Shown here one piece after another: positions 1 through 20,969 of a stretch of DNA of 36,490 nt; positions within the stretch are counted from its first letter, which is position 1; the number at the start of each line of letters is the position of its first letter. A program made the position numbers and the translations under genes. The notes under the pieces were generated by a model. The model was not told the DNA's origin, made no database searches, and saw only the letters and a program-made list of their open reading frames with translations. The DNA is from Candidatus Aenigmatarchaeota archaeon (GTDB lineage Archaea > Aenigmatarchaeota > Aenigmatarchaeia > GW2011-AR5): positions 1 to 36,490 of the forward strand of contig JACPJX010000024.1 of the NCBI GenBank assembly GCA_016187365.1, given 5' to 3'.

Positions 1-606
1 TTTCTTATCCTGTGCGGCGAAGAACTCGTGCCGCGCTACGCTGGGTATGCGATAAAATGCCTGTGGGAGAACGGCGCGGAAGACAACGGGAGAATTTCTG
101 GGGCCAAGGGCCTCATGCCATTCATAAAAAACCTGAGCCCGGAAGAGGTTGAATACTTCAGAAAACAGGTGGAGATAATAGACGCCATAGGTGAAAGGGA
201 TGAGAAGAAAATAGAATCCATTATAGACTCATGCAATGCGAAAAATCCGGGCGCGTACAAGTCGCCCCGGCCGAGTGGCGTTGAAGTGAAAATAATCGAG
301 GCTGACTACAACCCCGACAGCGGATGGACCGCGGACGAAAAGAACGACGAAAACTGGTTCATAATAGGGATAGACAGGGATAAACACACGATTTTCGCCG
401 AACATTATATGGGATACGGCGAAGGTATGAGAAAATGCTGCAAAATAGTCGGCAAAACCACGGAATCCATTCTTGGAACAATAGTAAGGCTGGGGAAAGT
501 CACCAAGCTCTATCATGCCGGGTATCTCGGAAAGGAACTCCAGAAGGCCGAGATTGCCATGAAAAAGGAAATAAAATACAGCCAGGAGCTTGAATTTGAA
601 ATATAA
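1..606 (+). CDS. MtrA-like domain protein with DUF4346-like C-terminal domain (5' end runs off the window)
   Basis: The frame is open from nt 1 (FLILCGEEL...), so the track start at 28 is probably internal. The N-part (LILCGEE...ENG...GRISGAKGLMPFIKNL..EEVEYFRKQVEIIDAIG...KNPGAY) matches by eye the conserved core of methyltransferase subunit MtrA. The C-part (WFIIGIDR..HY...HAGYLGKELQKAEIA) resembles DUF4346. Confidence 0.55.
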   Translation, partial: FLILCGEELVPRYAGYAIKCLWENGAEDNGRISGAKGLMPFIKNLSPEEVEYFRKQVEIIDAIGERDEKKIESIIDSCNAKNPGAYKSPRPSGVEVKIIEADYNPDSGWTADEKNDENWFIIGIDRDKHTIFAEHYMGYGEGMRKCCKIVGKTTESILGTIVRLGKVTKLYHAGYLGKELQKAEIAMKKEIKYSQELEFEI

Positions 607-9506: not shown

Positions 9507-12500
9507 TTACTTAATTATGAGCTTTTTTCCGGTGCTGCCATGATATCCGAACAGGAGTTCGCCGCCGCACTCGCATAAGCCGCGCAACGGCATCCTCTGG
9601 TATGACTTGCTGCATTTCGAGCACAAGATTTCCTCCCAGTTGCTCAGCGGCTGCTCTTTTTTGTAGTCGACGGTTATCTCGTGCTTCATTTTGCGCTTTG
9701 CCCCTGTGAGTATGTCGCTGATGCTTGACTGCCTGCCCCCGCCAAGAAGTTCGCTCCTCTCGACGCCGACGGCGTTCAGTATCCTTTCCACCGGCGGGAG
9801 GAGCTGGCTGGATATGTAATAATCCGAGTCGATCTGCATCCCTTTCTCCCTCGCATATTTCGGGTCCTCCGCGCGCTTGGAAAGCAGGTGGTTGTTGCCC
9901 TTTATTATGACGAATCCTATCCTGTCGCCTATCTTCGGCGCGTCGTACGGGTTCCTCATTGCGAGCTTCTTCGCGACTTCTATGTGCGGCAGGATGCCGC
10001 CGTAGCTTTCCGGGCTCTTCGTGAGCCCCTTAATCACTGTCAGCTTCTCCAGCGGCATGTCGCCGCGCCTGAGATGCTCCAGCGTATTCTTGACCTCATT
10101 CATGGCCATCTGGATGTCACCCTCCTTGAGCATTATGTTTATGACCTTCATCATTACCTCGCTTACGAGGGGGCACCAGTCGCGGCGGACTGTTTCTATG
10201 CCCTTCATTTCTATGCTGTCCTTCCATGCCTCCCCGGTGTGCTCAAACTTCCATCCGGCGTACCTTTTCTTCGTGAGTATGAGGAACGTCTTGTATATCT
10301 TCTCGAACTGGAGTTCCAGATGCCCTTCTAGTTTTGAGGTGACGAATGCCGCTATCTCCTCGCCGAGCTTCCTGGCGTCGTCAAGGTTGTTCGTGTCCGT
10401 CTTCACGAATATCGAATCGGTGTCGCCGTAGACGGTCTTCGCCTGGAAGTTCTGCTCCACAAGGTCCCTTGTTTTTATTATATTCTCCCTGCCGTATGCG
10501 GTTATGCTTCCTGCGACGTCGACCATGTAAAGCCTCGCGCGTATATAGCCTGTGTATCCGTAGAACGAATTATGCAAAACCATGCCCTGTGCTGTTACGA
10601 ACATCTCGGTGTCCCTTACAGACAAATCATAGACATATTCAGAAGGCTTGGCCTTGGATATGCTGGGCTGCTGACCAAATAAGTCTCCTGATGCTATTTT
10701 CTTGCCATGGGAAGTTTTTCTTTTTGATATGCGGTACAGGCCGTCAAAGGAATTGTTCTGGACTCCTCCAAAGTCTTTTATCATTACATTTAACTGGGCT
10801 GCGAGTCTTTTGCTTGTGGTGTTCATACGGTGCACATTCTTATTGCCGTCGCCTCTGTAATATCCTTCAAGAAAGGCTTTGCGCACCGAGCTGTTTGAAT
10901 TCAAAATAAAATCAGGCACTTTCTTGGCATAGGAAGACTCGCCGCAGTTATACCTGAAAAACAGGTACAGCAATTTCATGCCCATTGTTATATCCTTATT
11001 GAATACACTGGCGTCATAGCCAAAGCATTTTTTAATCAGATGCTTTATTCGCTGCACATTTTCCTTGTCCTTGTTTGCTATTGCTGCTTTGAATGAGCCT
11101 TTTCTTTTGTGGGTGCTGCCTTCGGCCACGAACCATCCCAACAATTCTGCAAGCTCCTCATCAACGGGCTTTGCGGCCGCAGGTATTTTTCTGCGACCCT
11201 GATGCGCTCCCCCGACTGCAATAAAGGCGCGTTTCCTGATAAATTCAGGTATTCTTCCGACTTCTGTTATGGGGAGTGTGTAATAATCAGGCTCTTCGCC
11301 GGCAGCTGAAAATCTTTCGTAAAATTGAGGCAAGTCCTCGCCATCCTCTGTTATATCATATACCGGAACCATGCCACAGTTCCCGACGGTTGTTAAGCCG
11401 CTCCTGTTTATCAGATGTCCTTCCGAGCTTCTTATGATGCGCCTCTCGACATATTTCTGGAGGCTGGCAGAATCGGCGGGCCATTTTACGGAAGAAATCA
11501 TTTTTGCCCTGTTTTTTAGCCAGTTTTTCTTGTTGAGATTCAGGCTCTTTGGAACGTATAAACGAACATCCGATGTCTCCTCTTCTGGAAGCGACTTCAA
11601 AAATTCTATCCAGTCAAATTCTATTTTCTGTTCAGGCAGCGAAACCCTGCTTACCTGCGCAATAATATCATTTTCAGAAATATCTCTGCCACCCCTTTCG
11701 GCCAGTTTGTGAAACGTGCTTTTTTGCTTCCGGTTTGAAGATATGCCTTTCATCACCATAACGCTATGGTCGTCCGTTATCATCGCCTCAGCCATCGGGG
11801 TTTTTATTCTGGTCAAATCACCCTTGCTTTTATGGCGTGATATCGCGTACATCGGCTTAAAACACGATTTGTTGTGTTTCACTGAGAGTGTTTCCCATCC
11901 GGAAAGCTCTATCACCTCTGTATCGCCTAAATCTATAATCTCGTGTTTTTTTGACATATCTTCAAAAAGTTCCTCTATCTCATAAATCTGCAATTTGCCG
12001 TCGGGTCTTTTGACAACAATATCCGTATCTGCGTGCACACTGTTCGACATGTCCTTTATTGCAAGCTGCTTGGCATTCAGTATCCTTTTCATGTCCCCTG
12101 CCGCGCCTTTCATCTGCTTTCTGACAGCGGATCTGGCGTCCATGAGCGTTGACAGTATGTCTGAAAGAATTCCTGACCTGACAGAGGGCTTCACGAAGTG
12201 CGCACCACTAGGCGACGAATAACATTCCATGAGCGGCTCCCTGAGGACGGTTTCCGGCGATATGTTGAAAGTCCTCATTATGCTAGGGTACAAACTCTTG
12301 AAATCGAGGACAAGGATGCAGCCGTCGGCATGCAACCCTTTCTCCGGCTCCATGACGGTGGCGCCCTTGAGGCCGTGCTCCTCCCTTTCCCTCGCCCTCC
12401 TTGCGATCTCGCCTTTTGACGGGGCGGGCGGCATCACGTATCCCCTTTTCCTGAATTCATGAAGGACCATCGTCTCCACGCGCTTCGACTGGCCGCCGAA

Positions 12501-13655
12501 AAGGTCCTGCAGGAGAAGGCCTGAAATCTTCGCGAGCTCCATGAATTTGTCCAGCATGCCTTTCTCAACGACGAGCCTGAGCGACAGGTCGGCGTCTTTC
12601 CTTGCGTATTCAAGGAATTCCATAATCTGTTCTTTGCTCCCGTTCCACATCCCCGCCATCTGGCCATACTCGACATCACGCTTTTCGTCGCCAAGCAAAG
12701 CCTTTGCAACTGTATTCAGGTCGTATCTGGGAAACTTGAGCCATGGGTCCCTCTTCAATATCTGGTACGGATCGACAACAACCCTTCCGGGCACTATAAA
12801 TTCCTGCATCGTGCCAAACGTTTTCCCGAACGACTGTTTGTCGGACCTGCCGAAATTCGCCGGTATCTTGTTGGCCCTGAACCTTTCGAGGAGATACGGA
12901 AAATCGAAGGCGTTTATATTGTACCCCGTCATCACATCGGGATCGTATTCTTCTATCGTCCTTGCGAACTCTTCAAGCATCTCCTTTTCCGAGGAAAATC
13001 CCCTGGCGTCCTGGTGATGAAAGTTCTTGGCCAGAAACACCATAGTCTTTTTCCCCCTGAATTCCGGCCTGAAAGACATTGATATTATTATCACCGGGTC
13101 GTTCTTTGAGTCAAGCGATTTTGTCGGGTCAGACGGCAGGCATTCGATGTCTATCGACATGTATCTCAGCGGGGCATTGTCCTGCCTTTCCACCGCCTTT
13201 ATGTCGTCTGCGCTGAAAGACTGGACTTTCACGGTACTGGTCCTGACTTTCTCGCCGCTGAATTCCACCCACCTCATTCCGTACAGCCCCCTGTCCACCA
13301 TGAACCTGTACTTGAACAGTATGTCAGCCTCGTATACGCCTTTTGAATGCTGCAACAGGGACTCTCTCACAGCCGGGACGTCCTGTGGGTTGCTGAGCGT
13401 CACTTTCAGCATTTTTGTCTTGCTATCCCTGTACCCCAGAGGCTCGAATTTCTCGTCTTCCTCTATCCGCCTTATTTCCTTCATGCCCTTCACCCTGCTT
13501 TCAGTGCCTTCACTGGGCACTATGTAAAAATACGGCATGAATTTGTCATGAAAAATGCACACGGTGCCGCCGCTCTCTGTTTTTGCAAATATCCTTATGA
13601 CCGGCTTGCCGCTGTTCATGAAGTAATCAACGTCAAGTATCTGGGCCTGCATCAT
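9507..13655 (-). CDS. polB: family-B DNA polymerase (PolB) precursor with one intein and a C-terminal 4-Cys extension
   Basis: Exo I SIDIECLP, Exo II GYNINAFDFPYL, Exo III EYARKDADLSL. Motif A LDFKSLYPSI. Motif B is split as KQLAIKDMSN / SFYGYTGY. Motif C VYGDTDSIFV. 1382 aa. Confidence 0.95.
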   Translation of the reverse strand: MMQAQILDVDYFMNSGKPVIRIFAKTESGGTVCIFHDKFMPYFYIVPSEGTESRVKGMKEIRRIEEDEKFEPLGYRDSKTKMLKVTLSNPQDVPAVRESLLQHSKGVYEADILFKYRFMVDRGLYGMRWVEFSGEKVRTSTVKVQSFSADDIKAVERQDNAPLRYMSIDIECLPSDPTKSLDSKNDPVIIISMSFRPEFRGKKTMVFLAKNFHHQDARGFSSEKEMLEEFARTIEEYDPDVMTGYNINAFDFPYLLERFRANKIPANFGRSDKQSFGKTFGTMQEFIVPGRVVVDPYQILKRDPWLKFPRYDLNTVAKALLGDEKRDVEYGQMAGMWNGSKEQIMEFLEYARKDADLSLRLVVEKGMLDKFMELAKISGLLLQDLFGGQSKRVETMVLHEFRKRGYVMPPAPSKGEIARRAREREEHGLKGATVMEPEKGLHADGCILVLDFKSLYPSIMRTFNISPETVLREPLMECYSSPSGAHFVKPSVRSGILSDILSTLMDARSAVRKQMKGAAGDMKRILNAKQLAIKDMSNSVHADTDIVVKRPDGKLQIYEIEELFEDMSKKHEIIDLGDTEVIELSGWETLSVKHNKSCFKPMYAISRHKSKGDLTRIKTPMAEAMITDDHSVMVMKGISSNRKQKSTFHKLAERGGRDISENDIIAQVSRVSLPEQKIEFDWIEFLKSLPEEETSDVRLYVPKSLNLNKKNWLKNRAKMISSVKWPADSASLQKYVERRIIRSSEGHLINRSGLTTVGNCGMVPVYDITEDGEDLPQFYERFSAAGEEPDYYTLPITEVGRIPEFIRKRAFIAVGGAHQGRRKIPAAAKPVDEELAELLGWFVAEGSTHKRKGSFKAAIANKDKENVQRIKHLIKKCFGYDASVFNKDITMGMKLLYLFFRYNCGESSYAKKVPDFILNSNSSVRKAFLEGYYRGDGNKNVHRMNTTSKRLAAQLNVMIKDFGGVQNNSFDGLYRISKRKTSHGKKIASGDLFGQQPSISKAKPSEYVYDLSVRDTEMFVTAQGMVLHNSFYGYTGYIRARLYMVDVAGSITAYGRENIIKTRDLVEQNFQAKTVYGDTDSIFVKTDTNNLDDARKLGEEIAAFVTSKLEGHLELQFEKIYKTFLILTKKRYAGWKFEHTGEAWKDSIEMKGIETVRRDWCPLVSEVMMKVINIMLKEGDIQMAMNEVKNTLEHLRRGDMPLEKLTVIKGLTKSPESYGGILPHIEVAKKLAMRNPYDAPKIGDRIGFVIIKGNNHLLSKRAEDPKYAREKGMQIDSDYYISSQLLPPVERILNAVGVERSELLGGGRQSSISDILTGAKRKMKHEITVDYKKEQPLSNWEEILCSKCSKSYQRMPLRGLCECGGELLFGYHGSTGKKLIIK
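10569..12041 (-). mobile_element. intein (491 aa) with LAGLIDADG homing-endonuclease domain, inserted in PolB motif B (pol-b site)
   Basis: Begins SVHADTD (Ser1), has block-B-like ITDDH, and ends MVLHN followed by the +1 Ser of SFYGY. Removing it restores K...NSFYGY. Two LAGLIDADG motifs: LAELLGWFVAEGS and AFLEGYYRGDGNK. The stretch is visibly more AT-rich than the flanking extein DNA. Confidence 0.85.
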
Positions 13656-14743
13656 TCCACCTTCGCAAATTCAGCAACCCGGCTTGAGAAATCCACTACG
13701 ACGGGCCTGAAATCCGACATAATAGAGCCGGAGTTGACGATTGTCACGGACTTGTAATTCGTTATGCCGGGCACGTGGCTGTGGCCTATATGGACGATGT
13801 CCGGGACCTCTTCGATGACCATGAAATCTTCCGGTATTATTGCGGAGGGCCTTCCCATATGCCTTTTTTTCAGCATATCGTGCGGCGCCTTGTGCATCAT
13901 CAGCACCTTTATCCCGTTTATTTCTATCATGGCCGGATTGCTCACTGAAACTATGTTTTTTTCCCTGAAATCCAGGGGCATCTGGGGGCATCCTTCCGAG
14001 TCCCTTTCCCCGGGACACGCGTAAAAATTCTTCGATGGCATCCTTTTTGCGAATTTCTCCAGTTCCGCTGGGGCCCCTATGTCGCCGGCGACAAAAAGAT
14101 TTTTTATGTCGCTTCTTTCAAACCATGAGAAGAACCTGTCGGCATCGCTTTCGGGCGCCTCGTCTAGATGCAGGTCAGAGACGAAGCATGCTTTTCCGCG
14201 GCCTTTGGCCGGCGTTCTTATCGGTATGTCCGGAAACAGGACTTCCTTGCCGAAAAGAACCTTCCCTCCTGTTACCACGCGCATTGCGACCACGTCATCT
14301 ATTTCTACTCCTTCGGCATCCTTTGGCTCGAATATCACGGGGACATTTGTCGTCATGTCCTCGACATCGAGTATTTTCCTCCCTTCGTCTTCCTTTATTT
14401 CGCGCACTATTCCTATGATGCACGCGTCATTGCGCATCGAATCAATCTTGTTCAGGGATATGAAATCCTTCTGGATCCTTGCAAGTATTACACCCTTCAT
14501 TTTCTCGTACTTCGACGTGTAAAATTTCACGAAATCCTCCGTCGTGATTTCGCTTTTTCTGGACTGAAAATTTTTTATCACCTTTATCCTGTCCTTCAGC
14601 ACAAAATTGCGGGCGTCGATGACAAAATCCCCCGAAACCACGTCAAAATCGTCGCTTGTTTTTGAAAGAAATTCCAGAGCATCTGGCGTGAGGAGAAATC
14701 CCCTGCGAAAATAGTCGTTCACGGTTTCCTGCATTTGCCACAC
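13652..14743 (-). CDS. dp1: DP1-like protein (DNA polymerase II/PolD small-subunit family: OB fold + calcineurin-like phosphoesterase)
   Basis: N-terminal FLLTPDALEFL helix region. OB-like ACIIGIVREI...ILDVEDMTTNVPVIF. PDE motifs FVSDLHLD, AGDIG, PGERD (in place of GNHD), MMHKA, IGHSHVP. GTG start at 14743 or ATG at 14734. The stop overlaps the polB ATG (ATGA at 13652-13655). Confidence 0.8.
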   Translation of the reverse strand: MWQMQETVNDYFRRGFLLTPDALEFLSKTSDDFDVVSGDFVIDARNFVLKDRIKVIKNFQSRKSEITTEDFVKFYTSKYEKMKGVILARIQKDFISLNKIDSMRNDACIIGIVREIKEDEGRKILDVEDMTTNVPVIFEPKDAEGVEIDDVVAMRVVTGGKVLFGKEVLFPDIPIRTPAKGRGKACFVSDLHLDEAPESDADRFFSWFERSDIKNLFVAGDIGAPAELEKFAKRMPSKNFYACPGERDSEGCPQMPLDFREKNIVSVSNPAMIEINGIKVLMMHKAPHDMLKKRHMGRPSAIIPEDFMVIEEVPDIVHIGHSHVPGITNYKSVTIVNSGSIMSDFRPVVVDFSSRVAEFAKVE

Positions 14744-14802
14744 CCGGTGTATCTATAGTTCCGCAAGGAAATAAAAGGGTATTATACCTTGCGAACTATC
14801 TG

Positions 14803-14970
14803 CAAAAGACAAAGTCTTTTGAGATGTCAAAGAGTAAACTCTTTGCACATATGTGAAACAAGTCATAATATGATGAATTATTTACTTGTTTCACTATAGT
14901 GTTACCGAAAGAATTTATAATGAAATCTCAAAAGAGCATCGCTCTTTTGCAGAAAGCCTCCGGCTTTTGC
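14803..14970. repeat. cluster of related short palindromes/hairpins in the cdc6-dp1 intergenic region
   Basis: CAAAAGAC-aaa-GTCTTTTG (14803-14821). CAAAGAG-taaa-CTCTTTG (14828-14845). GTGAAACAAGT-20 nt-ACTTGTTTCAC (14853-14894). CAAAAGAGC-atc-GCTCTTTTG (14929-14949). GCAGAAAGCC-tcc-GGCTTTTGC (14949-14970, one bulge). Confidence 0.7.
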
Positions 14971-14974
14971 AAAC

Positions 14975-16195
14975 TCAGGCGGAGAACCTTTCCGCAAGTA
15001 TTGCGTCAACCTTCTGGGCTGCGTTGTCGTTTATCGCGAGGCGTATCTCCCTCGTCCTTCCGTACCGCCCGTTGGATACCACCTTTGCGGTTATTATCCC
15101 CAGCATGTCGAGCTCTGCTATGAGATCACTTATCCTCCTCTGGGTCAGCGGCTTCATCCCGACAGAGGCGCATATGCCGGCATAGGCGTCGAACACGTCG
15201 CCGGTCAGCATCCTCCTGTCGGACCACTGCTTCTGCAGGGCCGTTTTCTGGCTGATCTTTATTATGGAATGGAGGACCGCCTGCGACTGCCTTGGCTGCG
15301 ACTTCACGGTCTCCACTATCCTGTCCATGTCTATCTTGTATTCCGCCATGTCGACATGCCTCTCTTCCACAATGCCGTCACCGAGCCTGTCTGCCATCTC
15401 GCCGGCAACCCTCAGAAGGTCGAGCGCCCTCCTCGCGTCACCGTGCTCCTGCGCGGCGAGCGCAGCGCACTTTCCAAGTACGGAGTCGCCGACGCTGCCG
15501 GTGGCAAACCCTGCAGATGCGCGCTCCTCCAGTATGTCCTTCAGCTGCGCGGCATTGTAAGGCTTGAATATTATCTCTTCTTCGGACAGCGATGATTTGA
15601 CCCTGAGGTCGAGGGCTTCCCTGAACGAGAGGTCGTTGGTTATGCCTATTATCATAATATGCGACTGCTTCAGTTCGGAATTTATCCTCGTGAGGTTGTA
15701 AAGGAAGTCGTCGCCTATTTTCCTGAACAGGGCGTCGATTTCATCAAGAACTATAATGACCTCGTTCTTTCCCGAGTCTATTTTCTCGAAGAATTTCCTG
15801 TAAAGGACGTCCGTCGGCAGGCCGGTGTCTGGGACAGTCTCGCCAAACTCCCTGAGCAACTGGGCAAAAAGCCTGTATTCGGTGTCGGCAATCTTTTTCA
15901 TCTTGCAGTTGATGTAGATCGGCTTTATGTCCCTTCCGTGGGTTCCCAGTATTTCCACAAGCTGGCCCAGGACGTATTTTGTGCATATCGTCTTGCCTGT
16001 TCCGCATGTCCCGTAGACGAAGATGTTGTTTGAATGGAACCCCTTGAGGACAGGTGCTATTATAGAACCCAGGATCTGTATTTCCTCGCCGCGGTGCTGT
16101 ATCCTTTCCGGCACAAAGTTTGAAGAAAGCGTTCTTTTATCGCGAAACACGCTGTGTTTTTGGATGTATTGTGAAAATATGTTCTGCTCATTCAT
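14975..16195 (-). CDS. cdc6: Orc1/Cdc6 replication initiator
   Basis: Walker A VYGTCGTGKT, Walker B IIVLDEID, an arginine-finger region, and a C-terminal winged helix (ISDLIAELDMLGIITAKV...GRYGRTREI). Confidence 0.95.
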   Translation of the reverse strand: MNEQNIFSQYIQKHSVFRDKRTLSSNFVPERIQHRGEEIQILGSIIAPVLKGFHSNNIFVYGTCGTGKTICTKYVLGQLVEILGTHGRDIKPIYINCKMKKIADTEYRLFAQLLREFGETVPDTGLPTDVLYRKFFEKIDSGKNEVIIVLDEIDALFRKIGDDFLYNLTRINSELKQSHIMIIGITNDLSFREALDLRVKSSLSEEEIIFKPYNAAQLKDILEERASAGFATGSVGDSVLGKCAALAAQEHGDARRALDLLRVAGEMADRLGDGIVEERHVDMAEYKIDMDRIVETVKSQPRQSQAVLHSIIKISQKTALQKQWSDRRMLTGDVFDAYAGICASVGMKPLTQRRISDLIAELDMLGIITAKVVSNGRYGRTREIRLAINDNAAQKVDAILAERFSA

Positions 16196-16232
16196 ACCAA
16201 CACCCCACCTACCGGCCAGACGTTACCCGGCA

Positions 16233-16240
16233 TTTTATAA
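16233..16240 (-). promoter_or_regulatory. TATA-box candidate for orc1/cdc6
   Basis: Minus-strand TTATAAAA lies about 38 nt upstream of the ATG at 16195, with a GGTGG-rich SD-like tract between them. Confidence 0.4.
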
Positions 16241-16306
16241 CCTTCAAAATCTGCAGAGGAACTGGTTCCTTTGTATAAAGCGCATCTTTTTGCAGATTTA
16301 CCCCGA

Positions 16307-16507
16307 TTTCAAATGGAACTTACCCATCTTTCCTGTGGAAATATCCTCCGTTTCTTCTGGAATAATTTTCAGGGTAGCACTATTTCTTCCGGCCGGTATT
16401 TAAACATTCTTTGTCTTGAAGAACTTCTTTTCAAAATATAGCATTGGGTGGTGGAAAGACCCCATTGTTTCATGTGGAACTGTAACCGATTGAAAGTTCT
16501 ATGGAAT
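16307..16507 (+). repeat. ORB/mini-ORB-like repeats
   Basis: TTTCAAATGGAAC (16307-16319). TTTCCTGTGGAAA (16329-16341, a perfect TTTCC-TGT-GGAAA dyad). GTGGTGGAAAG (16448-16458). TTTCATGTGGAAC (16468-16480). GTTCTATGGAAT (16496-16507). A related CTCCATGGGAAA lies at 16789-16800, beyond the AT-rich block. Confidence 0.5.
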
Positions 16508-16846
16508 ATGTAAAATAATTCCTCCCAAAACCAGAAAATTGTTCCGGGAAGGTCATGAAATACCCAATAAATGTTTTTAACCTACAAAAATTTTCAGTTT
16601 GCCATAACAACCACCCTAAAAATATTTTATGAAATATAAATGAAATAATATATTATAAAATTTCTATTATAATTATCATGAAAGTTTATATATCAGGCAT
16701 GTCAATAGAAGAAAAGAGAATATTTATTCTATTTATGGGAACGGAAAAAATTATCTATACAAAATCTCCCAGCCACAATCTACACGGCCTCCATGGGAAA
16801 TTATAGGGTGTCTGTGTTGCAATAAATTCGTTGTCGGTCGGATTGA

Positions 16847-16854
16847 TTTAAATA
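16847..16854 (+). promoter_or_regulatory. TATA-box candidate giving a leaderless transcript for the 262-aa orphan gene
   Basis: TTTAAATA is centred about 28 nt upstream of the ATG at 16878. No SD-like sequence lies between them. Confidence 0.4.
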
Positions 16855-16877
16855 CGCTTTCATCATATCGGGCAAAT

Positions 16878-20333: not shown

Positions 20334-20969
20334 TTATGATAACTTTTTCAACCCGCGCCACCAGTCTGTTGATTTGGAGTTCTCCAGGACGGCAAGGAGG
20401 GTTTTTGCGGATTTCGTCTGAAGGGCCTTTGAGACGTTGTTTATCCAGTCCTGTGCAGATGCATGGCCATTTTCCATATATTCCCTTGCCGTGAATGCCT
20501 GCTCGAGGAGGTCGGCGTCCTTTGCGATGATGCCGGCTCTCGTATTCCTCATCTCCGCGGCTTCCCACATCCCGAATATGCCGCTTCCGATGTCGCCGAG
20601 TTTTTCGGTCTGGTCTTTGACGGCCTTCTCACCTTCTTTTGAAACATATCTTCTGGCCACCTTGTGGATATCGCCCGTCCTGCACTCCTCGATGTCGTGA
20701 AAAAGAACGATGACGCACACTTCCTCCGGCTTGCCATATTTTTCGAGGCGCGCCAGTATGTAGCCTATCTGCGCAGCGCGCAGGCAATGGTCTGCAACGC
20801 TGTCCGGGAATTCCACGCCGGCGAGCCTCCAGCCCTCATGCTTCACCCTCTTAAGCATGCCGAGTTCGTGGATGAAATCTGCAAAGAACTGAAAGTTCTT
20901 TGAGATGTCAGAAGCCTCCGGCTTTTGCACATTTACGAGTTCTTTCATGCATACTTTTATGGACTTCAT
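20334..20969 (-). CDS. HD-domain phosphohydrolase (YfbR-like 5'-deoxynucleotidase family)
   Basis: VADHCLRAAQIGY ... LFHDIEECRTGDI HD motifs. I trimmed the start to the ATG at 20967-20969 (MKSIKV...). The track's longer N-terminus (to 21104) would overlap the divergent gene that starts at 21000. Confidence 0.7.
   Translation of the reverse strand: MKSIKVCMKELVNVQKPEASDISKNFQFFADFIHELGMLKRVKHEGWRLAGVEFPDSVADHCLRAAQIGYILARLEKYGKPEEVCVIVLFHDIEECRTGDIHKVARRYVSKEGEKAVKDQTEKLGDIGSGIFGMWEAAEMRNTRAGIIAKDADLLEQAFTAREYMENGHASAQDWINNVSKALQTKSAKTLLAVLENSKSTDWWRGLKKLS

What the first reader, a model, noticed from the sequence alone, without database searches (positions are those of the whole stretch)
13709..14191. 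The phosphoesterase domain of the DP1-like protein appears to lack key catalytic residues
Seen by eye: motif I FVSDLHLD and motif V IGHSHVP are present. The motif II region reads AGDIGAP where canonical DP1 has GDxVDG. Motif III reads PGERDSEGCPQMP where canonical DP1 has PGNHD....PQ.P, so the metal-binding Asn and the catalytic His become Glu and Arg. The protein is also short, at 363 aa. Established: archaeal DP1 is an active Mre11-like 3'-5' exonuclease, whereas eukaryotic B-subunits have inactivated PDE domains. Inference: this DP1-like protein may be a non-catalytic, B-subunit-like accessory factor. That would be consistent with pairing to a PolB that keeps intact Exo I-III proofreading motifs.
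Basis: partly seen in the sequence, partly recalled or inferred. Interest (0 to 1): 0.65.

Follow-up and report, generated by a model that had tools for sequence, protein, structure and literature searches.

The report
Inactivated DP1-like polymerase subunit (Aenigmarchaeota)
This gene encodes a shortened relative of the archaeal DNA polymerase D proofreading subunit that has lost its catalytic histidine and most likely serves as a non-catalytic partner of the B-family polymerase encoded next to it; this arrangement is eukaryote-like and was already described for Aenigmarchaeota in 2020 and 2025.

Summary
ORF 13652..14743 (-) is a DP1 homologue by sequence and by predicted fold. Three independent alignments place its PGERD on the canonical PGNHD motif. 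The metal-binding Asn (P. abyssi N450) is therefore Glu, and the catalytically essential His (H451) is Arg. The other six metal ligands are present, including the Asp of motif II.

The His is missing in 118 of 120 relatives, which are nearly all from Aenigmarchaeota. Metal ligands are all kept in about half of the family and heavily lost in about a third. The rest of the protein is equally conserved in both groups.

The gene overlaps by 4 bp the start of a PolB that has intact Exo I-III motifs. That PolB also has a C-terminal CxxC...CxC zinc finger resembling the DP2 finger that binds DP1. The order Orc1/Cdc6, DP1-like, PolB recurs in relatives.

Kazlauskas et al. 2020 (NAR) described this inactive Aenigmarchaeota DP1 group paired with CTD-bearing group B6 PolB. 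A 2025 Nat Ecol Evol paper showed the DP1-PolB interaction by yeast two-hybrid. The only open nuance is whether the retained di-metal site still does something.

The parts
13652..14743 (-). DP1-like gene (363 aa from GTG; more likely 360 aa from the ATG at 14734). It has a short N-terminal helical region, an OB fold and a calcineurin-like phosphoesterase (PDE) domain.
   Evidence: ORF list. Pfam Metallophos_2 4e-15 and weak DNA_pol_E_B. NCBIfam PolII small subunit 1.6e-41, below cut-off. PDB DP1 hits. AF2 pLDDT 94.2. Foldseek to DP1 TM 0.76.
13709..14191 (-).
   Evidence: Coordinates converted; Pfam Metallophos_2 covers aa 186-343.
14162..14185 (-). Motif I, FVSDLHLD. The Asp and His ligands (P. 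abyssi D360/H362 equivalents) are retained.
   Evidence: P. abyssi residues from PMC10721889.
14069..14089 (-). Motif II, AGDIGAP. The bridging Asp (D404 equivalent) is retained; the second acidic residue is Ala.
   Evidence: Profile alignment 'fvaGDigd' to 'IIAGDVVD'; column counts G 120/120, D 90/120.
13976..14014 (-). Motif III, PGERDSEGCPQMP. Glu (nt 14006-14008) replaces the metal-binding Asn N450. Arg (nt 14003-14005) replaces the catalytic His H451.
   Evidence: In the family, the N position is N39/E37/gap34 and the His position is not His in 118/120.
13889..13903 (-). Motif IV, LMMHK. The His (H497 equivalent) is retained.
   Evidence: H 95/120 in the family.
13769..13789 (-). Motif V, IGHSHVP. 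Both His residues (H560/H562 equivalents) are retained.
9507..13655 (-). Family B DNA polymerase (1382 aa; the extein is 891 aa). Its ATG overlaps the DP1-like stop (ATGA). Exo I-III and polymerase motifs A-C are intact.
   Evidence: Pfam DNA_pol_B 8e-112 and DNA_pol_B_exo1 6e-37. Motifs and junction. PDB hits to archaeal PolB and Pol delta at about 1e-104.
10569..12041 (-). 491-aa LAGLIDADG intein inserted in PolB motif B (…KDMSN|S…HN|SFYG…).
   Evidence: Pfam Intein_splicing and LAGLIDADG_3; boundaries.
9567..9623 (-). PolB C-terminal zinc finger, CSKCSKSYQRMPLRGLCEC. It is the presumed docking module for the DP1-like subunit.
   Evidence: It aligns to the DP2 finger '[22 protein letters not shown]' (E 0.055 for the single sequence, 8.5e-4 with a 4-sequence profile). 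It is conserved in all six PolBs adjacent to DP1-like genes. It matches the B6-aenigma1 description (PMC7544198).
14975..16195 (-). Orc1/Cdc6 initiator gene immediately upstream on the same strand.
   Evidence: Pfam Cdc6_C, Cdc6_lid and AAA. The order Orc1, DP1-like, PolB is conserved in L001, L004, L005, L006 and L007.

Best explanation
The gene encodes a minimal DP1-type 'second subunit' (short N-terminal helices, OB fold, PDE fold) whose Mre11-like exonuclease site has been disabled. It works as the non-catalytic B-subunit of the PolB encoded immediately downstream.

Shown here:
- Homology and fold.
- Replacement of the catalytic His by Arg and of the metal-binding Asn by Glu.
- Loss of that His across the whole family.
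- Translational coupling to a PolB that keeps its own DnaQ-type Exo I-III proofreading motifs and ends in a DP2-like Cys4 zinc finger.
- Conserved Orc1/Cdc6, DP1-like, PolB gene order in a core chromosomal neighbourhood.

Inferred, with support from published yeast two-hybrid and AlphaFold3 work on an Aenigmatarchaeota pair:
- The PDE/OB body of the DP1-like protein docks on the PolB C-terminal zinc finger, as DP1 docks on the DP2 CTD and as eukaryotic B-subunits dock on CysB-containing CTDs.
- Proofreading is done by PolB.
- The small subunit tethers the polymerase to other replisome parts, for example GINS through its N-terminal helices.
- In this lineage the PolB-CTD has replaced DP2 as the replicative catalytic subunit.
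For: Homology and fold:
- DP1 homology.
- AF2 model with pLDDT 94.2 and pTM 0.88.
- Foldseek hits to P. abyssi DP1 at E 1e-26 and TM 0.76, then Pol epsilon p59, Pol delta p50 and the Pol alpha B-subunit at E 1e-18 to 1e-14.

Active site:
- Mapping gives D-H-D-E-R-D-H-H-H against the canonical D-H-D-N-H-D-H-H-H.
- H451A is the exonuclease-dead mutant of P. abyssi PolD (PMC10721889).
- The catalytic His is absent in 118/120 members, and that position is hypervariable (A, V, K, I, M, R, S, T).
- 36/115 members have lost at least 3 of the 7 metal ligands, in about 8 independent events. They are as similar to the query elsewhere (49%) as members with an intact site (48%), so the conserved function does not need the site.

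PolB partner:
- The PolB exo and pol motifs are intact and the start/stop codons overlap as ATGA.
- The CTD finger resembles the DP2 finger and is conserved next to every DP1-like gene examined.
- Gene order is conserved.

Literature:
- Inactive Aenigma DP1 group, B6 PolB with CTD, and DP2 absent in most Aenigmarchaeota (PMC7544198).
- Aenigmatarchaeota lack DP2 but keep DP1, and DP1 binds PolB-DP2CTD in yeast two-hybrid (PMC12680538).
Against: - No biochemical test exists for this protein.
- Six of seven metal ligands are retained, and Glu could substitute for Asn as a ligand.
- About half the family keeps the whole ligand set (N or E at motif III). This bimodal pattern suggests the metal site is still selected in some lineages.
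- Some metallophosphoesterases of the Metallophos_2 type (E. coli YfcE, with GNCD) are active without the motif III His. This point rests on my own knowledge and was not checked here.
- Absence of DP2 cannot be verified for this genome from a 36-kb window.
- One relative (L003) has no PolB next to the DP1-like gene.
- The similarity between the CTD finger and the DP2 finger is statistically modest (E about 1e-3).
Confidence: 0.8

Rival explanations
1. The di-metal centre is still assembled, with Glu replacing Asn as a ligand. The protein then keeps some phosphoesterase or nuclease activity, or a metal-dependent structural role, in addition to being a PolB partner. Under this reading it is a weakened or re-purposed enzyme, not a dead one.
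For: - Six canonical ligands plus Glu are present in the window protein.
- 53/115 members keep all seven ligand positions (N or E at motif III), and the distribution is bimodal (7: 53; 1 or fewer: 20), as expected if the ligands are selected as a unit.
- N and E interchange among the closest relatives, P0001-P0006.
- The best Pfam model is Metallophos_2, a family that contains active enzymes lacking the motif III His (the family property is from my own knowledge).
Against: - In DP1 itself, loss of the His (H451A) abolishes exonuclease activity.
- The position is hypervariable in the family, so no conserved substitute exists.
- A third of the family has lost the site with no loss of overall conservation or of PolB linkage.
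- PolB already supplies proofreading.
Confidence: 0.15
2. It is the small subunit of a conventional PolD whose DP2 gene lies elsewhere in the genome, and its adjacency to PolB is incidental.
For: DP1 and DP2 are not always adjacent in archaea (my own knowledge). The window covers only 36 kb, and no DP2 can be excluded outside it.
Against: - The stop/start overlap with PolB, and the DP1-like-PolB adjacency recurring in six of seven related loci across identities down to the second clade.
- PolB carries the DP2-type docking finger.
- Published surveys find DP2 absent from Aenigmarchaeota/Aenigmatarchaeota.
- An exonuclease-dead DP1 would leave PolD without proofreading.
Confidence: 0.04
3. It is a decaying gene remnant (pseudogene in progress) with no function.
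For: Erosion of catalytic residues and a shortened length (363 aa against about 450-640 aa for canonical DP1).
Against: - The reading frame is intact.
- More than 120 full-length homologues of 350-375 aa show 22 invariant and about 50 nearly invariant columns.
- The AF2 model is very confident.
- The operon position is conserved.
Confidence: 0.01

Closest known systems
Aenigmarchaeota inactive DP1 group ('Aenigma_GB_GCA_002789635-like', Kazlauskas et al. 2020, NAR 48:10142), paired with PolB group B6-aenigma1
   Same: - The closest homologues are annotated as Aenigmarchaeota.
- Short DP1 with an inactivated PDE motif.
- The adjacent PolB has a single C-terminal Cys4 motif most similar to the DP2 zinc finger.
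- The published interpretation, that DP2 was replaced by a CTD-bearing PolB, is identical.
   Different: Nothing substantive differs. This PolB additionally carries a LAGLIDADG intein, and this member keeps 6 of 7 metal ligands plus Glu. Placement in one tree with the reference sequence was not done here.
Canonical archaeal DP1 (P. abyssi and T. kodakarensis PolD small subunit; PDB 5ihe, 6knb, 8ppt)
   Same: OB plus PDE two-domain fold (TM 0.76). Motifs I, II, IV and V are present, as is the PG..D....PQ.P signature. Weak similarity in the N-terminal helices.
   Different: - About 120-280 aa shorter, through loss of the long N-terminal linker and of PDE insertions between motifs I-III and IV-V.
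- N450->E and H451->R.
- The partner is a PolB, not DP2.
Eukaryotic B-subunits (Pol epsilon p59, Pol delta p50, Pol alpha p70; PDB 5vbn, 6tny, 4y97)
   Same: Same fold (Foldseek E 1e-18 to 1e-14, TM 0.58-0.63). The PDE is not used for catalysis. The partner is a family B polymerase with a Cys-rich C-terminal domain.
   Different: - Eukaryotic subunits have lost essentially the whole metal site, whereas this protein keeps most of it.
- The PolB here has one finger, not CysA plus CysB.
- By sequence it is closer to DP1 (22% identity) than to B-subunits (12-16%).
Baldrarchaeia PolB3-DP2CTD plus DP1 (Nat Ecol Evol 2025, PMC12680538)
   Same: A lineage without DP2 that keeps DP1, with PolB fused to a DP2-derived CTD. 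DP1-PolB binding was shown by yeast two-hybrid.
   Different: According to that paper, the Baldrarchaeia CTD is full-length and eukaryote-like, while the Aenigmatarchaeota CTD is shorter and 'degenerate'. This matches the single finger seen here.

Membership tests
DP1 / B-subunit superfamily (second subunits of PolD and of eukaryotic Pol alpha, delta and epsilon) | Two-domain OB fold plus calcineurin-like PDE fold | tested here: met
   AF2 model with pLDDT 94.2. Foldseek top 39 hits are all DP1 or B-subunits, with the best at TM 0.76.
DP1 / B-subunit superfamily (second subunits of PolD and of eukaryotic Pol alpha, delta and epsilon) | Significant sequence similarity to DP1 | tested here: met
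   NCBIfam PRK04036 models at 1.6e-41, below the equivalog cut-offs. phmmer against the PDB at 1.8e-18. Family profile at 1.6e-27.
DP1 / B-subunit superfamily (second subunits of PolD and of eukaryotic Pol alpha, delta and epsilon) | N-terminal helical domain homologous to DP1N / B-subunit NTD | tested here: inconclusive
   Two short helices are predicted at aa 2-25. The profile alignment to the T. kodakarensis DP1 N-terminus scores only -2.6 bits.
Catalytically active DP1 (PolD proofreading exonuclease) | Complete active site D360, H362, D404, N450, H451, H497, H560, H562 (P. abyssi numbering) | tested here: not met
   N450->Glu and H451->Arg; the other six residues are present (residue list from PMC10721889).
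Catalytically active DP1 (PolD proofreading exonuclease) | Partner DP2 encoded in the genome | not testable with these tools
   There is no DP2 in the 36-kb window. The rest of the genome is unavailable. Literature reports DP2 absent in this phylum.
Catalytically active DP1 (PolD proofreading exonuclease) | 3'-5' exonuclease activity | not testable with these tools
   This requires a biochemical assay.
Aenigmarchaeota inactive DP1 group (Kazlauskas 2020) | Aenigmarchaeota origin | tested here: met
   Named homologues at 40-64% identity are all 'Candidatus Aenigmarchaeota/Aenigmatarchaeota archaeon'. The window is syntenic with those MAG contigs.
Aenigmarchaeota inactive DP1 group (Kazlauskas 2020) | Inactivated PDE motifs | tested here: met
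   The motif III His is absent in 118/120 members, including this one.
Aenigmarchaeota inactive DP1 group (Kazlauskas 2020) | Co-occurrence with a group B6 PolB bearing a C-terminal Zn-binding motif | tested here: met
   The adjacent PolB ends in CxxC-x13-CxC, which aligns to the DP2 finger. Formal phylogenetic assignment of this PolB to B6 was not done.
Aenigmarchaeota inactive DP1 group (Kazlauskas 2020) | Clusters in a tree with the reference sequence (GCA_002789635) | not tested
   The reference sequence was not retrieved.
Eukaryotic B-subunit (functional analogue, not membership) | Binds the Cys-rich CTD of a family B catalytic subunit | not testable with these tools
   Inferred from the operon and the finger. 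Published yeast two-hybrid data exist for an Aenigmatarchaeota pair, but not for this protein.

The most novel reading that the evidence does not exclude
The family may capture intermediate stages of the DP1-to-B-subunit transition. The catalytic His was lost once, early. The di-metal centre is still under selection in about half of the lineages, including this one, where Glu substitutes for Asn. It has decayed independently about eight times in the others. If the retained centre has a function, such as a structural metal, a non-proofreading phosphoesterase activity, or substrate or primer-end binding without cleavage, that would be a role not described for any polymerase second subunit.
Probability: 0.15. 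Interest if true: 0.5.

Novelty: already known. Interest (0 to 1): 0.25.

Why it matters
The PolB-CTD plus inactive-DP1 pair of Aenigmarchaeota is one of two known archaeal arrangements that mirror the eukaryotic replicative polymerase architecture: a family B catalytic subunit, a Cys-rich C-terminal domain and an inactivated PDE B-subunit. It is used in published models for the origin of Pol alpha, delta and epsilon. This window adds one more well-preserved example, with an intein-bearing PolB next to orc1 and a probable origin. It does not change that picture. The residue-level survey made here could guide the choice of proteins for a biochemical test of when exonuclease and metal binding were lost. 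That survey shows universal loss of the catalytic His, and bimodal, clade-structured retention of the metal ligands.

Tried and rejected
I rejected it because it stays conserved in members that have lost all metal ligands.\n- Small ORF in the spacer: I looked for a small ORF between orc1 and the DP1-like gene, as in L001 (59 aa). None is present here. The spacer is a long palindrome.\n- Rfam: a scan of the whole window found nothing.\n- Taxonomy of the second clade: cluster look-up returned no organism names for the second short-DP1 clade.\n- Supplement: the Kazlauskas supplement holds the DP1 alignment only as an image, so their residue-level call for the Aenigma group could not be read.\n- DP2 absence: I ran no further search on this.

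Full report
**What is there.** The finding's coordinates (13709-14191) fall inside ORF 13652..14743 on the minus strand. The ORF is 363 aa from a GTG start. The ATG at 14734, preceded by GGTG, gives the 360-aa product that gene callers report as P0001. The region corresponds to ORF residues 185-345.

The gene sits in a same-strand cluster:
- Orc1/Cdc6 at 14975..16195.
- The DP1-like gene.
- A family B DNA polymerase at 9507..13655, whose ATG overlaps the DP1-like stop codon (GAATGATG).

**Is it a DP1 homologue?** Yes.
- Pfam gives Metallophos_2 (4e-15) and a weak DNA_pol_E_B hit.
- NCBIfam PolD small-subunit models score up to 1.6e-41 but far below their equivalog cut-offs.
- phmmer against PDB sequences finds only DP1 of T. 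kodakarensis and P. abyssi (1.8e-18). A 60-sequence family profile raises this to 1.6e-27.
- An AlphaFold2 model built on that alignment is very confident (pLDDT 94.2, pTM 0.88).
- Foldseek against the PDB returns P. abyssi DP1 first (E 1e-26, TM 0.76). Human Pol epsilon p59, Pol delta p50, the Pol zeta accessory subunit and Pol alpha B-subunits follow (E 1e-18 to 1e-10). Generic metallophosphoesterases (Vps29, Mre11, LpxH) appear only far below.

**Are the catalytic residues really missing?** According to PMC10721889, the P. abyssi DP1 site consists of D360 and H362 (motif I), D404 (II), N450 and the catalytically essential H451 (III), H497 (IV), and H560 and H562 (V). H451A is the standard exonuclease-dead variant.
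- The family profile aligns 'fvipgekd..eeeypqlp' to 'FIGPGNHDaaR.ALPQP' of both solved DP1s, colinear with the strongly aligned flanks.
- A separate MAFFT alignment used 113 proteins from an exhaustive HMM search. About 55 canonical DP1s of 440-640 aa read D-H-D-N-H-D-H-H-H almost without exception. The window protein reads D-H-D-E-R-D-H-H-H.
- The motif II remark needs tempering. The bridging Asp of 'GD' is present, and only the second acidic residue (GDVVD in DP1, GDIGD in the family) is Ala here.

**The family.**
- A database search returned at least 120 proteins of about 350-375 aa at 40-78% identity. Every one that carries an organism name is from Candidatus Aenigmarchaeota/Aenigmatarchaeota.
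- The motif III His is absent in 118/120 members, and that position is hypervariable (A, V, K, I, M, R, S, T, or deleted). The Asn position is N in 39, E in 37 and deleted in 34.
- Counting N or E as a ligand, 53 of 115 full-length members keep all seven ligand positions and 36 keep four or fewer. The distribution is bimodal.
- On a neighbour-joining tree built without the site columns, heavy degeneration needs about 8 changes, against about 30 for shuffled labels.
- Degenerate members are as similar to the window protein outside the site (49%) as intact ones (48%).
- This means the conserved function of the family does not require the metal site, although the site seems to be retained as a unit in some lineages, including this one.
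- Strictly conserved residues lie elsewhere: W204, N266-P267, R291, P311-D312, N326, K328.

**The partner.**
- After removing a 491-aa LAGLIDADG intein inserted in motif B (aa 539-1029), the PolB is 891 aa. It has Exo I (DIE), Exo II (NINAFD), Exo III (YARKD), motif A (DFKSLYPS), motif B (KDMSNSFYG) and motif C (YGDTDS).
- Its PDB neighbours are archaeal PolBs and Pol delta at about 1e-104 to 1e-106.
- It ends in CSKCSKSYQRMPLRGLCECGG. This aligns to the DP2 zinc finger '[22 protein letters not shown]' (E 0.055 for the single sequence, 8.5e-4 with a four-sequence profile).
- The same finger closes every PolB found next to a DP1-like gene in six related loci.
- The order Orc1/Cdc6, DP1-like, PolB recurs in L001, L004, L005, L006 and L007. 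L008 has DP1-like then PolB. L003 has Orc1 then DP1-like, without an adjacent PolB.
- The surrounding genes are the same as in those Aenigmarchaeota contigs: HMG-CoA reductase, SpoIIM, HMG-CoA synthase/thiolase, NAC, TctA and SecDF. This is core chromosome, not a mobile element.

**Mechanism.** The best-supported reading is that the protein is a non-catalytic second subunit. It docks on the PolB C-terminal finger, as DP1 docks on the DP2 CTD and as eukaryotic B-subunits dock on CysB-containing CTDs. Proofreading is supplied by the PolB DnaQ-type exonuclease domain. Homology, residue losses, operon structure and the finger are shown here. Binding, lack of activity and absence of DP2 from this genome are inferred.

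**Comparison with the literature.** This is already published.
- Kazlauskas et al. [quoted passage not shown] They noted that most Aenigmarchaeota lack DP2.
- They described PolB group B6 with C-terminal Zn-binding motifs; B6-aenigma1 has one motif, most similar to the DP2 finger.
- They proposed that DP2 was replaced by this PolB, and that DP1 inactivation was afforded by PolB's own exonuclease.
- The same paper reports yeast two-hybrid and AlphaFold3 evidence that DP1 binds PolB-DP2CTD in both lineages. It describes the Aenigmatarchaeota CTD as short and degenerate, and reassigns 'B6-aenigma2' to Baldrarchaeia contamination.
- The window protein meets every feature of the published group that could be tested here.

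**Rivals.**
- *Residual metal binding or activity* cannot be excluded. Six ligands plus Glu are present, the ligand retention is bimodal, and Metallophos_2-type enzymes such as YfcE work without the motif III His (the YfcE point is from my own knowledge). I give this about 0.15.
- *A conventional PolD with DP2 elsewhere* is unlikely (0.04), given the stop/start overlap, the conserved adjacency, the finger on PolB and the published surveys.
- *Gene decay* is contradicted by the conservation and the model quality.

**Verdict.** The feature is real, but it is a further member of a described system. Interest is low to moderate. The only unexplored angle is what the retained di-metal ligands are for.

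Noticed in passing
window 10569-12041 (-): A 491-aa LAGLIDADG intein interrupts PolB motif B (…KDMSN|SVHADTD…MVLHN|SFYGYTGY…). The PolBs of the related loci examined are 884-899 aa and lack it.
   Followed up: partly
window 14796-14956 (the spacer between orc1 and the DP1-like gene, 14744-14974): A nested imperfect palindrome of about 160 nt. As RNA it folds into one long hairpin (-66 kcal/mol, z = -8.2 against shuffles). Relatives L004, L005 and L006 have only 1-49 bp between the two genes, so this looks like an insertion or a lineage-specific regulatory or terminator element. It has no Rfam match. Its 3' end (14954-14971) recurs exactly at 20912-20929.
   Followed up: partly
window 16196-16877 (upstream of orc1): Three ORB-like boxes matching TTTCNNNTGGAAM lie at 16307, 16329 and 16468. 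The window holds 4 matches against 0.43 expected by chance. They sit beside a very AT-rich stretch at about 16610-16700. This is a candidate replication origin next to the orc1, DP1-like, PolB cluster.
   Followed up: partly
L007 6001-9852; L008 6001-9837 (proteins P0156-P0250): A second, more divergent clade of short DP1-like proteins (375-400 aa; motif III G-E-x-D, no PQxP, catalytic His mostly absent). It also lies directly upstream of PolBs of about 885 aa that end in the same CxxC…CxC finger. Its taxonomy could not be determined.
   Followed up: partly
window 13790-13792 (-), His315 in ATG-start numbering (PDIVHIGHSH): A family-specific, nearly invariant His (114/120) three residues before motif V, where canonical DP1 has Gln. 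It stays conserved in members that lost all metal ligands, so it is probably structural or an interface residue and not catalytic.
   Followed up: no
window 28-606 (+): An ORF combining an MtrA-like segment (PF04208) with a pterin-binding DUF4346 domain, in a genome of a presumed non-methanogenic DPANN archaeon.
   Followed up: no
L003 6001-7065: One family member (P0115, 42% identity) keeps the Orc1/DP1-like adjacency but has an FAD oxidoreductase on the opposite strand in place of PolB downstream. Its PolB must be encoded elsewhere.
   Followed up: no
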